A stretch of 25,651 bases of DNA, taken from the IMG/VR virus record IMGVR_UViG_2778261088_000004, positions 1 to 25,651 of that record. One strand, given 5' to 3'. Positions within the stretch are counted from its first letter, which is position 1. Each line of letters opens with the position of its first letter. The position numbers were made by a program, and so were the translations under genes. Below are positions 9,986-25,651 of the stretch, piece by piece. The notes under the pieces were generated by a model. It was given only the letters and a program-made list of their open reading frames with translations, was not told the origin of the DNA and searched no databases. Origin of the DNA: a virus (lineage: Duplodnaviria; Heunggongvirae; Uroviricota; Caudoviricetes).

Positions 9986-10641
9986 CTACTCTAACGACAG
10001 CATACTTACAGCAATTGGTATTTTTTGCAGGCGAGGCTACTTGTCATCCTGACGCAAACTATTTATTGGAATTTGAGAGGTTAGCGTCACCCGGTATCGT
10101 TCTGGAACTGGCCCAACAGGTGCTGGCCTTGAGACAAAAAGAGCAACATGAAAGTAATACGTGTAGATTGAATTTTGAGCAGTGGCTGGAACAGCAACGC
10201 GGAAAAATCGATGTGGACTGTGGTTGTGTGTCCACTGAAACATTCATGCACTGGCTGCGGGTAGCTTACGAGGCTGGCAACTATCCGGATATTCCGGATA
10301 GTTCGGTGCCAGCGCCAGGAAAGGGCGTCACCGGTGAACGTATCCGCATTAAGCCGCATGTTTATCGCGAACTGGTTAACCGTCTCCACGATACAGCGAT
10401 CAAGTGTGCTGGCACCCAGCAATTACGAGAAAGAATTAGCCGTGTTTTGGGCGACGTTATTACGCCATATCATCATAAACAAGCCGAGAAAAGCGGTCTG
10501 GAAAGGTGTCATCTTGAGGCAGCATTAAACATTAAGCCGGGGCATACGCTTGGCATTATTGATGCACTGTTGGTTCATAAGATGGCCAGGGCTTTATTGT
10601 CGTTGGTGGACGCTGGTGATACAAGCGAGGGTGAAGTATGA
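9967..10641 (+). CDS. Hypothetical protein (224 aa; start may instead be ATG 9982)
   Basis: ORF track; the alternative ATG at 9982 overlaps the upstream stop (ATGA). Confidence 0.5.
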   Translation: MAQKEMTTLTTAYLQQLVFFAGEATCHPDANYLLEFERLASPGIVLELAQQVLALRQKEQHESNTCRLNFEQWLEQQRGKIDVDCGCVSTETFMHWLRVAYEAGNYPDIPDSSVPAPGKGVTGERIRIKPHVYRELVNRLHDTAIKCAGTQQLRERISRVLGDVITPYHHKQAEKSGLERCHLEAALNIKPGHTLGIIDALLVHKMARALLSLVDAGDTSEGEV

Positions 10642-11000
10642 GAGTTGCAGATCACATCAAACACCTTGAAAGAATTATCGAAAACGGTGAACTCTTAAGA
10701 GATCAGATGAGACGCACGGCAGAAGCCAGGGAGGCGATAATCCACAGTCAGGCTGGTAAATTAAAGCAATTGTCAGAGATTAACACGCTATACAAGAACA
10801 GACGTAACCGGGCGGTGATGCGGCTTCAGAAAGCACGTAATGAAATTAAATTGGTGGAGGCAAAACTGAAAAAACAGATCCAGCGTTACGATCAGCAAGA
10901 TGCTTTTTATGCCGCCATCAAGGCGGCTGCTAATGAAATAGGCATCTGGAAGTTGCTGGTGGAGAAAGCAAAGACGAAGTTAAATGCCAACGAAAGCTGA
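10638..11000 (+). CDS. Hypothetical coiled-coil protein (120 aa); last gene of the rightward operon
   Basis: ATGA overlap with the upstream gene; K/E/R-rich helical sequence. Confidence 0.5.
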   Translation: MRVADHIKHLERIIENGELLRDQMRRTAEAREAIIHSQAGKLKQLSEINTLYKNRRNRAVMRLQKARNEIKLVEAKLKKQIQRYDQQDAFYAAIKAAANEIGIWKLLVEKAKTKLNANES

Positions 11001-11075
11001 ACTACAGGTGCCCACCAGCACATACAGAAAATGATTGTTTCCACATCAAGGAGATTTTAATGTTTCACTGAAACA

Positions 11076-11213
11076 TTAAGTAAGCCAGTGCATAATTCCA
11101 TTTTTTACTGACCTTAAAAGCAAAATCAAAACGATGATGAGGATAATAGCCAGAATCTGGCTAATAATAGGCGCATCTAAAAATGCACTCAGGAACTGAA
11201 AAAAAGCGTTCAT
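11076..11213 (-). CDS. Candidate 45-aa hydrophobic peptide (MNAFFQFLSAFLDAPIISQILAIILIIVLILLLRSVKNGIMHWLT)
   Basis: Found by hand translation of the minus strand; AAGGAA lies 8 nt upstream of the ATG; single transmembrane helix; sits in an otherwise gene-poor gap. Confidence 0.3.
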   Translation of the reverse strand: MNAFFQFLSAFLDAPIISQILAIILIIVLILLLRSVKNGIMHWLT

Positions 11214-12075
11214 TCAGGTGGTTCCTTGTCAAATGTAAAGGTGCACTTGCTCACGTTGACGTAGAAACCCAACCCCTATATAGTTGGATTCGGTGAATGA
11301 AAGTCGTTAACGTGAGCTTACGGCACATGTTTTCGGAAAAACATCAGGGAACGGCTAATTCCTTGATGCGGGTGGGGTCTGTAATGCAGACCCTATCTAT
11401 TAACGTCATGATTGCATCTCAAATTTTCTCCTTATCTTCAATTAATCTACATTCATTTCATCTGTTAGCCACCACAATATGTAGAAAATGGCCCTCTTGC
11501 AAGTGCATAACTTTGTGGATAACTCAGGAAGGAAAAAGTGGCTTTCGCGCACCTTCGGTCAGACAAGGTGTCCGGGAAAGTCAACGCAAAGAAAAAAATT
11601 GTTAAAAATAACGTTTGTTGGAATTGTATATTTTTATCCCCTTCAATGGTTAGCATTCTATTAACATCTTTTTTTAGAGACAGAAAAACATATCGTAACA
11701 ACATATATACAGTGTTAAGAGGCGAGTATTATCCTGCGGTGGGAATTCTGGGCGCTGTTAGATTCGACTTTCTCAGCAGGATTACATCGTCAACTTGCGA
11801 CGTTGCCGTATGACTTTCGTGTAATAGGTGACAATGATGCGGCTAGTGAGTTACTTGTGAAGTTTTTCGGAAAAGGTTTTGTGGCCTCGGATCTTGATGA
11901 GCTACAGCAACATGAAGTGTCTAATTTGATTTTTAGCCATAGCCAATAAGCCTCCCTCCTCCATCAAGGCCACAATTTGTGACCTTAAACAATTTGTTTT
12001 CTGCTTTTTCTTATTTGAGAAAATAACGTTGTTGACAGCTAATAGGCTCGTTGTTGTTATACATGCCTGTATAGA

Positions 12076-12432
12076 TTATGACCGTAAATTATTAGCGGAT
12101 TTTAAGCCATATTCACCGTTGTAGAAATTACTCATGTTCCATTCATTAGGAAGTTCTTTTCTGTCCAATGTATAGTGGCGCACGATATAACGATCTTCAT
12201 CTTCTTCGATGGACAGGCGGACATAGCCAATGTGAATCACCGATACGGGCGGTGTTCGTATTGCATAGATGTCGCGGAGATATACCGGCAGCTCGACAAA
12301 TGCATCAGGTGCATCTGTGATGCTCGTTTTTTCACAGTATTCATATAACGCATCGTTGATATTGTTAAGAGATTCATGATCGTATATTTCCAGGTAATTA
12401 CCGCGATCGCGATGGTACTCGATTTTAGCCAT
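12076..12432 (-). CDS. Hypothetical protein (118 aa), distal gene of a divergent two-gene operon
   Basis: ATG directly abuts the stop of the upstream gene (TGAATG), with AGGGG upstream; acidic; no family recognised. Confidence 0.6.
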   Translation of the reverse strand: MAKIEYHRDRGNYLEIYDHESLNNINDALYEYCEKTSITDAPDAFVELPVYLRDIYAIRTPPVSVIHIGYVRLSIEEDEDRYIVRHYTLDRKELPNEWNMSNFYNGEYGLKSANNLRS

Positions 12433-13017
12433 TCAAAATCCCCTGTTATCGTTTTGCATTTCTCTAATCCGGTTCAGAACTACTTCATGCTGGACTTGGA
12501 TAGCGGCTTTTTCGTTTTCAAGCCGGGCAATAGACATCTCTAATTCTTTGCTGTACCAGGCGAGCTGGGCCAGGTTCATCCGGTTGTGGTCGAGAGTTGG
12601 AGACACTTCGACGCGATCCCTTTCTTCCTGCTTTAATGAGAAGAGATTTATCTCATCCCTTGAGGAAAATTCAGCAACAATTTCTTGTTGATGATCCGGT
12701 CGCTGCGGCATCCTCGCCAGTATAAATGGCGGTTCTTTTGAAAACATGAATGTCGGTTCAGACCGTGTTTTTACCCAGCTTGCCTGCTGTCTTTCGGCAA
12801 GTTCACAGGCTTCATCATAGTTATCTGCCAAACAAAGCACGGATGGACGGTCCCACGCCCCACCATTCAGACAATAAACTACAATTTTCCCGTCAGGTTG
12901 TGTAACCCCATATGGATGGTCCCACCAGGCGTCCAGCTGAGCTTTAGAGCGTTTCTCGTTAGGAGTGCAGTCAAAATTTTTGGGCAATACAGGATCGAGA
13001 GGAATGCGGGCAGGCAT
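12433..13017 (-). CDS. Hypothetical protein (194 aa), proximal gene of a divergent two-gene operon
   Basis: ATG at 13017 with AAGGA 8 nt upstream; C-terminal coiled-coil-like segment; shares its upstream intergenic region with humD. Confidence 0.6.
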   Translation of the reverse strand: MPARIPLDPVLPKNFDCTPNEKRSKAQLDAWWDHPYGVTQPDGKIVVYCLNGGAWDRPSVLCLADNYDEACELAERQQASWVKTRSEPTFMFSKEPPFILARMPQRPDHQQEIVAEFSSRDEINLFSLKQEERDRVEVSPTLDHNRMNLAQLAWYSKELEMSIARLENEKAAIQVQHEVVLNRIREMQNDNRGF

Positions 13018-13152: not shown

Positions 13153-13172
13153 TACTGTATAAATGAACAGTA
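13153..13172 (+). promoter_or_regulatory. LexA (SOS) box TACTGTATAAATGAACAGTA
   Basis: CTGT-N8-ACAG with flanking TA/TA, close to the E. coli LexA consensus TACTGTATATATATACAGTA; 20 nt upstream of the humD ATG and overlapping a TATAAAT -10-like hexamer. Confidence 0.7.
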
Positions 13173-25289: not shown

Positions 25290-25651
25290 TGGAGGTTCCT
25301 TCAGTTTTCTGATGAAGCGCGGAGGTGGCTCAACCTGCGAAAAGAAACGAGTTGCTACGTAAGTCCGAGAACATGCTTTCCATGGTCTTGCACCGGTTGT
25401 GTTCCGGTCTATCTCTCATTTTAAGCGGCTTTTTTCTCAAATGCCACCGGCGATTTCCAGCCGAGTGCTGATGAATCCCCTAATGATTTTTATCAAAATC
25501 ATTAAGTTAAGGTAGATACACATCTTGTCATATGATCAAATGGTTTCGCCAAAAATCAATAATCAGACAACAAAATGTGCGAACTCGATATTTTACACGA
25601 CTCTCTTTACCAATTCTGCCCCGAATTACACTTAAAACGACTCAACAGCTT

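What the first reader, a model, noticed from the sequence alone, without database searches (positions are those of the whole stretch)
11076..11213. Candidate 45-aa hydrophobic peptide gene on the minus strand within the gap
Hand translation of the minus strand gives MNAFFQFLSAFLDAPIISQILAIILIIVLILLLRSVKNGIMHWLT with AAGGAA 8 nt upstream of the ATG. Size and single-helix hydrophobic character match type I toxin or small membrane effector peptides (Hok/Ldr/TisB-like), and its isolated position in non-coding DNA fits a toxin with an antisense RNA partner.
Basis: inference. Interest (0 to 1): 0.45.

Follow-up and report, generated by a model that had tools for sequence, protein, structure and literature searches.

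The report
Candidate antisense-controlled membrane peptide in P1
A conserved 45-residue membrane-peptide gene in phage-plasmid P1/P7 has a long leader, a host-like DnaA-box promoter and a conserved opposing promoter, so it looks like an untested RNA-controlled toxin module that the reference P1 annotation reads on the wrong strand.

Summary
The ORF is where the finding says (11076-11213, minus strand), with AAGGAA 8 nt before the ATG. The window is a P1/P7-type phage-plasmid. The ORF lies between pmgV and lxr, near humD and phd-doc.

It is very likely a real gene. It is 45 codons with no indels in three lineages down to 58% amino-acid identity. Its substitutions keep it hydrophobic (P about 0.005-0.02). 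It was intact in 80 of 82 loci read.

It is the 3' part of a self-contained module of about 565 bp (11010-11574):
- The 'nrdA-like promoter' with two invariant DnaA boxes, already noted in GenBank M95666, points at the ORF through a leader of about 255 nt.
- A near-consensus sigma-70 promoter (11256-11284, plus strand) inside that leader fires back at it. Its hexamers are intact in 82 of 82 loci.
- The roughly 175-nt overlap is better conserved (90-97%) than the ORF (76%).

P1's plus-strand upfM, upfN and upfO are not conserved as ORFs.

This layout fits a type I toxin-antitoxin-like locus. However, there is no homology to Hok, Ldr, TisB or any Pfam, NCBIfam, PADLOC or Rfam family. The plus-strand RNA would not cover the ribosome-binding site. 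Conservation of a global RNA fold is not demonstrated. Toxicity, translation and both RNAs are untested.

The parts
11076..11213 (-). 45-aa ORF (stop included). Predicted short N-terminal amphipathic helix (residues 2-12), a break at D13-A14 just before Pro15, a long hydrophobic helix (15-44, core 16-33), and a basic C-terminal tail.
11222..11227 (-). Shine-Dalgarno-like AAGGAA, 8 nt before the ATG (GAGGA in the divergent lineage). The GG core is predicted mostly base-paired (0.85-1.0) in all three lineages, but with different partners.
11474..11502 (-). nrdA-like sigma-70 promoter: -35 TTGCAA (11497-11502), 17-nt spacer, -10 TATTGT (11474-11479). Predicted start about 11467. It points toward the ORF.
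11502..11522 (-). Two DnaA boxes: TTATCCACA (11514-11522) and TTATGCACT (11502-11510). Both are invariant in E. coli nrdA upstream DNA and in all three phage lineages.
11484..11574 (-). Stretch 98.9% identical to the E. coli chromosomal nrdA upstream region (ypaB), in the same orientation as nrdA.
11214..11467 (-). Predicted 5' leader of about 255 nt of the ORF mRNA. It contains conserved local hairpins, including GGGUCUG/CAGACCC (11375-11393) with a compensatory U-A to C-G change.
11256..11284 (+). Opposing sigma-70 promoter TTGACG-17-TATAGT (10 of 12 consensus positions; P1 'PupfN'). Predicted start about 11292, face-to-face with the nrdA-like promoter. Hexamers and spacing are intact in 82 of 82 loci.
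11292..11467 (+). Overlap of about 175 nt between the two predicted transcripts (the candidate antisense RNA region), which contains the best-conserved DNA of the module (90-97% at about 11250-11430). The plus RNA folds into three hairpins (z = -4.1). A possible weak terminator is hairpin 11375-11393 followed by UAUCUAUU.
11010..11075 (-). Conserved 3' UTR: a hairpin overlapping the stop codon (11059-11077, one compensatory pair), an anti-SD-like CUCCUUG (11047-11053), and a U-rich tail (11025-11034) that can pair with the 5' end of the leader (11453-11464).
11010..11574 (-). The whole conserved module, shared by the window/P7, P1 and divergent lineages. Its flanks differ between lineages: pmgV or hsdM on one side, hot present or absent on the other.

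Best explanation
The ORF is a real gene for a 45-residue single-pass membrane peptide of P1-family phage-plasmids. It is the coding part of a self-contained module of about 565 bp.

Shown:
- The ORF is conserved in frame and in hydrophobicity.
- Its upstream DNA is homologous to the E. coli nrdA promoter, with two invariant DnaA boxes, and is oriented toward the ORF.
- A near-consensus promoter on the other strand inside the leader is invariant.
- The overlap between the two is the best-conserved DNA of the module.

Inferred:
- The nrdA-like promoter makes an mRNA of about 450 nt, with a leader of about 255 nt in which the ribosome-binding site is largely base-paired.
- The opposing promoter makes an antisense RNA, or simply interfering transcription, across the leader. 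This keeps peptide synthesis low through RNA pairing and degradation and/or promoter collision.
- When that balance is lost, or when DnaA control is relieved under replication stress, the peptide inserts into the inner membrane and harms or arrests the cell.

This is a type I toxin-antitoxin-like mechanism. The peptide belongs to no described toxin family.
For: - Element identity: P1/P7 phage-plasmid.
- Coding: 45 codons with no indels in three lineages. Substitutions preserve hydrophobicity (P = 0.005-0.019). An SD-like motif is kept in all lineages. A helix-break-helix model has pLDDT 90.
- Minus-strand promoter: 91 nt are 98.9% identical to nrdA upstream DNA in the nrdA orientation, and GenBank M95666 annotates it as 'nrdA-like promoter' plus a dnaA box.
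- Opposing promoter: TTGACG-17-TATAGT is intact in 82 of 82 loci, and variation falls only in the spacer. It is retained in the window lineage, which lacks hot, so it is not merely a hot promoter.
- Conservation profile: the overlap is 90-97% identical, against 76% for the ORF.
- Linkage: the leader core and the ORF co-occur in 53 of 53 IMG/VR loci. The module keeps its borders while its neighbours change.
- Rival ORFs: plus-strand upfM and upfN are not conserved.
- Wobble-pair asymmetry: G.U pairs favour the minus RNA over the ORF and the transcript ends, and favour the plus RNA in the central hairpins.
- Repeated independent disruptions of the ORF: IS1 twice, three frameshifts and one insertion.
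- Narrow distribution, which is reported as typical of type I systems (PMC5367252 abstract).
Against: - There is no direct evidence of either RNA, of translation or of toxicity.
- No sequence similarity to any known toxin or antitoxin RNA family.
- The plus RNA would not cover the ribosome-binding site, and it shows no complementarity to it in trans.
- It has no canonical terminator.
- A conserved global mRNA fold is not supported. Of the base pairs in the window's minimum-energy fold that changed in the divergent lineage, 17 of 39 stay paired, against a null expectation of 46%. The consensus fold with 99.8% pairing was derived from the same sequences, so it is circular, and it has only 2 compensatory pairs.
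- Amino-acid identity is not conserved beyond chance.
- From my own knowledge: P1 plasmid addiction has been attributed to phd-doc alone, so any killing after plasmid loss by this module would have to be weak or conditional.
- The region is dispensable for lytic growth (PMC10695390).
Confidence: 0.45

Rival explanations
1. The peptide is a real but non-toxic small membrane protein. It could be a modulator of a host membrane protein, or a lysogen-expressed exclusion or accessory factor. Its expression would be set by the nrdA-like promoter and damped by the opposing promoter, without toxin-antitoxin behaviour.
For: The coding and promoter evidence is the same as for the best explanation. There is no homology to any toxin family. 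Amino-acid sequence is only loosely constrained. From my own knowledge, many enterobacterial peptides of this size and shape are regulators rather than toxins. The region is dispensable for lytic growth.
Against: The very long leader, the invariant face-to-face promoter and an overlap better conserved than the coding part are unusual for ordinary small membrane protein genes and typical of antisense-controlled toxins. Repeated independent disruptions were seen.
Confidence: 0.25
2. The ORF is not translated. The functional elements are the promoters and RNAs only: an sRNA or a 5' UTR from the plus-strand promoter, or a relic of captured nrdA regulatory DNA that titrates DnaA. The open frame would persist because the strand is U-rich, which gives hydrophobic codons.
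For: The non-coding overlap is more conserved than the ORF. The probability that the frame stays open by chance is 0.31-0.42. Amino-acid differences are not fewer than random. PGAP does not call the ORF in the window-type variant. The plus RNA folds well (z = -4.1).
Against: Hydrophobicity is retained beyond what the mutational spectrum allows (P = 0.019). There are no indels in 135 nt while the flanks have several. The ATG, the stop and an SD-like motif are kept in all lineages. Conservation extends about 65 nt past the stop and then ends, as expected for a transcript that includes the ORF.
Confidence: 0.2
3. The reference P1 annotation is right: the region encodes the plus-strand proteins UpfM, UpfN and UpfO, and the minus-strand ORF is incidental.
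For: These are annotated in NC_005856 and in P7. The plus-strand promoter was named PupfN there. RNA-seq reads over upfN are reported during lytic infection (supplement of PMC8201110; strand not stated in the passages read).
Against: upfM has no counterpart in the divergent lineage. upfN is 65, 102, 42 or 31 aa depending on lineage, and a 1-nt indel falls inside it. upfO matches the E. coli ypaB frame that lies inside the nrdA promoter homology. PGAP calls none of them.
Confidence: 0.03

Closest known systems
hok/sok (parB of plasmid R1) and relatives
   Same: A compact module of about 0.5-0.6 kb on a plasmid-like replicon. A small membrane peptide is encoded on an mRNA of about 400-450 nt. 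An antisense promoter lies inside the leader and fires toward the mRNA 5' end, upstream of the toxin's own ribosome-binding site. Pairing between the 5' and 3' ends of the mRNA is possible.
   Different: No Hok_Gef Pfam match and no Rfam match. There is no mok-like reading frame overlapping the toxin start: the leader ORFs of 21 and 25 aa end 130 and 37 nt upstream. The peptide has an N-terminal amphipathic helix followed by a transmembrane helix, rather than Hok's N-terminal transmembrane segment and Cys-containing periplasmic tail (Hok features from my own knowledge). The 5'-3' pairing rests on one compensatory pair.
Ldr/Rdl, ZorO/OrzO, DinQ/AgrB and TisB/IstR-1 (E. coli chromosomal type I systems)
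   Same: A peptide of 30-45 aa with one transmembrane helix, a long structured 5' UTR, and an RNA antitoxin that acts well upstream of the ribosome-binding site (general features from my own knowledge). Transcription is tied to DNA-related stress.
   Different: No sequence similarity. The stress input is DnaA boxes in an nrdA-type promoter, not LexA: there is no CTG-N10-CAG site in the module, and the nearest lies at 13155-13170 between lxr and humD. The RNA is fully cis-overlapping rather than divergently encoded. The system sits on a phage-plasmid.
E. coli nrdAB promoter region
   Same: Two DnaA boxes and the -35 region are shared, 98.9% identical over 91 nt in this window and in the same orientation relative to the downstream gene. 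nrdAB is repressed by DnaA-ATP and induced by replication stress (PMC11853086).
   Different: Homology ends at about the -10 region. Downstream lies an unrelated leader and the 45-aa ORF instead of ribonucleotide reductase. Whether NrdR boxes are retained was not established.
Face-to-face promoter switches of temperate phages (for example coliphage 186 pR/pL, lambda PR/PRE, P1 c4/ant)
   Same: Two convergent promoters with overlapping transcripts, a layout known to give transcriptional interference and antisense control (from my own knowledge).
   Different: No repressor gene is involved here. The weaker promoter expresses only a tiny membrane peptide.

Membership tests
Type I toxin-antitoxin system (generic) | Small (<60 aa) hydrophobic toxin ORF with a predicted transmembrane helix | tested here: met
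   45 aa, GRAVY 1.56, hydrophobic core at residues 16-33, helix 15-44 with pLDDT 90
Type I toxin-antitoxin system (generic) | An RNA antitoxin gene overlapping or adjacent to the toxin mRNA, on the opposite strand | tested here: inconclusive
   A near-consensus opposing promoter is invariant in 82 of 82 loci, and the overlap of about 175 nt is highly conserved. The RNA itself, its 3' end and its effect are not shown, and there is no canonical terminator.
Type I toxin-antitoxin system (generic) | Toxicity of the peptide on expression, neutralised by the RNA | not testable with these tools
   This needs induction and rescue experiments. The only indirect hint is the repeated natural disruptions.
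Type I toxin-antitoxin system (generic) | Translationally inert primary transcript (sequestered ribosome-binding site, structured leader) | tested here: inconclusive
   The SD GG core is predicted 0.85-1.0 paired in three lineages, but with different partners. A conserved global fold is not supported beyond chance. Local hairpins have 2 compensatory pairs.
Hok/Sok | Toxin matches the Hok/Gef family profile | tested here: not met
   No Pfam or NCBIfam hit at E <= 10 other than irrelevant weak ones
Hok/Sok | A mok-type upstream reading frame overlapping the toxin start, and a Sok-like RNA | tested here: not met
   The leader ORFs end 37 nt or more upstream of the ATG. Rfam finds no match in 10900-12150 even at E <= 10.
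Ldr/Rdl | Toxin similar to Ldr; Rdl RNA present | tested here: not met
   No Pfam hit. BLASTP against an LdrD sequence recalled from memory gives no alignment. No Rfam hit.
TisB/IstR, DinQ/AgrB (SOS-controlled type I) | A LexA box at the toxin promoter; toxin family match | tested here: not met
   No CTG-N10-CAG site in 11000-11650. No family match.
nrdA-type DnaA-regulated promoter | Sequence homology to PnrdA with both DnaA boxes, oriented toward the downstream gene | tested here: met
   98.9% identity over 91 nt, the same orientation as nrdA, boxes invariant in all lineages, and annotated as nrdA-like in M95666
nrdA-type DnaA-regulated promoter | Actual regulation by DnaA-ATP or NrdR | not testable with these tools
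   Homology stops near the -10 region. NrdR boxes were not established. Reporter assays are needed.

The most novel reading that the evidence does not exclude
P1-family phage-plasmids carry, next to phd-doc, a second and so far unrecognised RNA-controlled toxin module. Its toxin would represent a new family. Its transcription would be wired to the host replication initiator DnaA through a captured nrdA promoter, so that the prophage reads the host's replication state and can arrest or kill the cell under replication stress, plasmid loss or superinfection.
Probability: 0.3. Interest if true: 0.7.

Novelty: new variant of a known kind. Interest (0 to 1): 0.55.

Why it matters
- P1 is a reference phage and plasmid. 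Its only recognised addiction module, phd-doc, lies about 2.5 kb away.
- A second, RNA-regulated membrane-toxin module would change how this accessory region (hot, lxr, humD, phd-doc) is read, and would replace three doubtful genes (upfM, upfN, upfO) in the reference annotation.
- A DnaA-box, nrdA-type promoter driving a type I-like toxin would be an unusual stress input. The SOS-linked type I toxins I know of (TisB, DinQ) use LexA.
- It is directly testable with a few constructs.
- P1-like phage-plasmids also spread resistance genes such as blaCTX-M-55 (PMC9603915), so their maintenance functions have practical interest.

Tried and rejected
- **Known families:** Pfam, NCBIfam, PHROGs, PADLOC and Rfam (gathering threshold, and E <= 10) gave no meaningful match.
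- **Ldr similarity:** a resemblance to Ldr seen by eye was rejected by BLASTP.
- **Wider relatives:** the 5.8-billion-protein search, the exhaustive search of 1.84 billion representatives, GTDB genomes (two scans), IMG/VR and metagenomes found only the same three lineages or broken copies of them. No deeper alignment could be built, so covariation power stayed low.
- **Global mRNA fold:** a test independent of the consensus gave no signal beyond chance. I therefore do not claim hok-like fold-back inhibition, only that such pairings are possible.
- **Trans pairing:** pairing of the plus RNA with the ribosome-binding site is not better than shuffled controls.
a convergent promoter over the ribosome-binding site or the ORF 3' end (P1upfM/P2upfM; CTGAAA-17-CATAAT at 11068-11096) is not conserved in the divergent lineage.
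- **The terminator-like hit** at 11171-11188 lies inside the ORF, so it is a conserved hairpin and not a terminator.
- **Leader peptides:** the 21-aa leader ORF changes by 8 non-synonymous and 1 synonymous nucleotide substitutions between lineages, so it is not a conserved protein.
- **Literature:** no paper in the library mentions this ORF or a type I system in P1. Lobocka 2004 and Chikova & Schaaper 2007 were not held.

Full report
**1. The observation**

AAGGAA (11222-11227) lies 8 nt before the ATG.

The window is a P1/P7-type phage-plasmid. The 1.1 kb around the ORF is 99.8-100% identical to P7, to Salmonella phage SJ46 and to many E. coli and Salmonella plasmids, and 96.5% identical to P1.

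In gene-map terms the ORF lies in the gap between pmgV (10638-11000, +) and the lxr homologue (12433-13017, -). humD and phd-doc follow.

The ORF is not new as a database entry. It is AMR60003.1 in SJ46 and WP_000123562.1 ('hypothetical protein') in P1-type plasmids. PGAP leaves it unannotated in this window's variant. The reference P1 and P7 records instead annotate plus-strand upfM, upfN and upfO over the same DNA.

**2. Is it a gene?**

Three lineages exist:
- Window/P7 type: MNAFF...
- P1 type: MTAFF..., 2 amino-acid differences.
- A divergent 'D' type in other P1-like plasmids: MIVFFQFLSAFLNAPVLSQVLAIVFIVVLIWFFKSVINRGVRWLI. It is 58% identical in amino acids and differs at 33 of 138 nucleotides.

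All three have 45 codons with the same ATG and TAA and no indel, although both flanks contain indels.

Most replacements, especially in the hydrophobic core, are I/V, L/F or R/K exchanges. Nei-Gojobori dN/dS is 0.41.

I placed the observed substitutions at random. The frame stays open in 31-42% of trials, so openness alone proves little. It stays open and as hydrophobic as observed in only 0.5% of trials (uniform model) or 1.9% (spectrum-preserving model). The number of amino-acid changes is not below random. Selection therefore seems to act on hydrophobic character, as expected for a membrane helix.

The peptide is the second most hydrophobic of the 119 ATG ORFs of 30-70 aa in the window. AlphaFold, run on the single sequence, gives helix 2-12, a break at residues 13-14 (D-A, just before Pro15), and helix 15-44, with pLDDT 90.

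The ORF was a full 45-codon frame in 62 of 63 loci in a first set and in all 19 metagenome loci. In 3 of those the last five residues are replaced by an IS1 end.

Exceptions and broken copies:
- IS1 inserted at codon 41 in the P1 type (L063, L064, L138).
- IS1 inserted at about codon 37 in the D type (P0003).
- Frameshifts: L062 in the T7 run, P0001 and P0004.
- One insertion (P0002).

**3. What surrounds it**

Comparison with the D type shows a conserved block at 11010-11574, with unrelated flanks. The D type has hsdM where the window has pmgV. The window type lacks hot, which P1 and the D type have.

Conservation within the block is uneven (ORF figure):

| Region | Identity, window vs D type |
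|---|---|
| 11493-11532 | about 87-90% |
| about 11250-11430 | 90-97% (dipping to about 80% near 11341-11380) |
| The ORF | 76% overall |

*The upstream stretch is an nrdA-type promoter.* The first 91 nt (11574-11484, read on the ORF strand) are 98.9% identical to the E. coli chromosome just upstream of nrdA, in the same orientation as nrdA. It contains:
- two DnaA boxes (11514-11522 and 11502-11510), invariant in E. coli and in all phage lineages;
- a -35 TTGCAA (11497-11502);
- a 17-nt spacer;
- a -10 TATTGT (11474-11479; TACTGT in the D type).

GenBank M95666 (1993) already labels this 'nrdA-like promoter' and 'dnaA box' on that strand. No product was assigned to it in the stretch of that record I read.

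The predicted start near 11467 gives a leader of about 255 nt before the ORF.

P1's UpfO is the counterpart of the E. coli ypaB frame inside this homology. upfM is absent from the D type. upfN is 65, 102, 42 or 31 aa depending on lineage, and a 1-nt indel falls inside it. These three plus-strand genes are probably spurious.

*A second promoter points back at the first.* Inside the leader, on the plus strand, lies TTGACG-17-TATAGT (11256-11284). It matches 10 of 12 consensus positions and is P1's predicted 'PupfN'.
- Its hexamers and spacing are intact in 82 of 82 loci. The only variation among lineages is in the spacer.
- Its predicted start (about 11292) faces the nrdA-like promoter, so the two transcripts would overlap by about 175 nt. 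That overlap contains the best-conserved DNA of the module.
- It cannot be simply a promoter for hot, because the window lineage keeps it without hot.
- The leader core and the ORF co-occur in 53 of 53 IMG/VR loci.

**4. RNA structure, stated cautiously**

- Both strands fold better than shuffled sequence: plus 11292-11440, z = -4.1; minus 11040-11480, z = -3.65.
- Local hairpins are kept. Compensatory changes occur at 11378/11390 (U-A to C-G) and in the hairpin overlapping the stop codon (11064/11072).
- The ends of the predicted mRNA can pair: 11453-11464 with 11025-11034. One compensatory pair supports this, and in the D type the pairing is a 17-bp helix.
- The 3' UTR carries an anti-SD-like CUCCUUG that can pair with the SD region. 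The SD GG core is predicted 0.85-1.0 paired in all lineages, but with different partners.
- G.U asymmetry suggests that the ORF and the transcript ends are structured as minus RNA, and the central hairpins as plus RNA (my reading of the predicted pairs).
- The non-circular test fails. Of the window's minimum-energy pairs that changed in the D type, 17 of 39 remain pairs, against a null expectation of 46%. The consensus count of 99.8% paired is circular.

I therefore treat hok-like fold-back control as possible but not shown.

The plus RNA has no canonical terminator. Hairpin 11375-11393 followed by UAUCUAUU is at best a weak one. The plus RNA also has no significant complementarity to the ribosome-binding region.

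**5. Most likely mechanism**

*Shown:*
- a conserved hydrophobic ORF;
- an nrdA-homologous promoter with DnaA boxes aimed at it;
- an invariant opposing promoter;
- a highly conserved overlap.

*Inferred:*
- The nrdA-like promoter makes a long-leader mRNA that is poorly translated.
- Transcription from the strong opposing promoter lowers peptide synthesis, by antisense pairing in the leader and/or by collision with the weaker promoter.
- Loss of that control, or de-repression when DnaA control is relieved during replication stress (nrdAB behaves this way; PMC11853086), lets the peptide reach the membrane and harm the cell.

This is how type I toxin-antitoxin loci work, and several of them act through sites far upstream of the toxin's ribosome-binding site (my own knowledge). 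I put about 0.45 on this full reading and about 0.75 on the narrower claim that the ORF is a real membrane-peptide gene.

Weak external hints:
- P1vir RNA-seq shows more reads over 'upfN' (the overlap) than over 'upfO' (supplement of PMC8201110; strand not stated in the passages read).
- The region is dispensable for lytic growth (PMC10695390).

**6. Comparison with known systems**

The module works like hok/sok, Ldr/Rdl or ZorO/OrzO in layout, but it fails the membership tests for each:
- no profile or Rfam match;
- no BLASTP similarity to Ldr;
- no mok-type overlapping frame;
- no LexA box in the module, the nearest being at 13155-13170 between lxr and humD.

No relatives exist outside P1-like elements in any collection searched. 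A narrow distribution is reported for type I systems generally (PMC5367252 abstract).

No paper in the searchable library mentions the ORF or a type I system in P1.

**7. Verdict**

The ORF and the nrdA-like promoter are each already in databases. What is new is the joined reading of them as an antisense-controlled membrane-peptide module with a DnaA-type input, together with the likely mis-annotation of upfM, upfN and upfO.

I rate it a new variant of a known kind, of moderate interest (0.55), and cheaply testable.

Noticed in passing
window 11484-11574 (to about 11612): This stretch is 98.9% identical to the E. coli chromosomal nrdA upstream region (ypaB). It is much closer than the P1-type and D-type versions of the same segment, which suggests recent exchange between this phage-plasmid lineage and the host chromosome. 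P1 'upfO' is the counterpart of ypaB.
   Followed up: partly
L063, L064, L138 (P1 type, codon 41); P0003 (D type, about codon 37): Independent IS1 insertions in the last codons of the 45-aa ORF replace the C-terminus with ...VMTPTY and cut off the 3' UTR. There are also frameshifted copies (L062, P0001, P0004) and one insertion (P0002). This could be toxin attenuation or IS1 target preference.
   Followed up: partly
window 11249-11261 and 11306-11318: A 13-bp inverted repeat, GCTCACGTTGACG / CGTTAACGTGAGC, brackets the plus-strand promoter, with the -35 box inside the left arm. It is nearly invariant in all lineages. It may be an RNA stem or a protein-binding site.
   Followed up: no
window 11575-12075: About 500 bp have no PGAP gene, and there is no hot gene in this lineage (tblastn negative). 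P7 carries IS903 inserted in this stretch, and its annotated Upf91.6 and Upf91.7 'transmembrane' ORFs lie here.
   Followed up: partly
window 11344-11433 (minus strand): A strong SD (AAGGAG, 11428-11433) sits 10 nt before a 3-codon mini-ORF (ATG CAA TCA TGA). The stop of that mini-ORF overlaps the ATG of a 21-aa leader ORF. The frames are kept in all lineages but the amino acids are not, so this is a possible leader-peptide or standby element.
   Followed up: partly
window 13155-13170: A LexA box, CTGTATAAATGAACAG, lies between lxr and humD, as in P1. There is none in the module.
   Followed up: yes
window 25513-25582 (minus strand): An Rfam RNA-OUT match (97 bits) marks an IS10/Tn10 end at the right edge of the window.
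   Followed up: no
plasmid hits H117-H127: Other E. coli plasmids of 72-137 kb share only the DnaA-box segment of about 70-80 nt (78-90% identity), without the leader or the ORF. nrdA-type promoter DNA therefore also occurs on other large plasmids.
   Followed up: no
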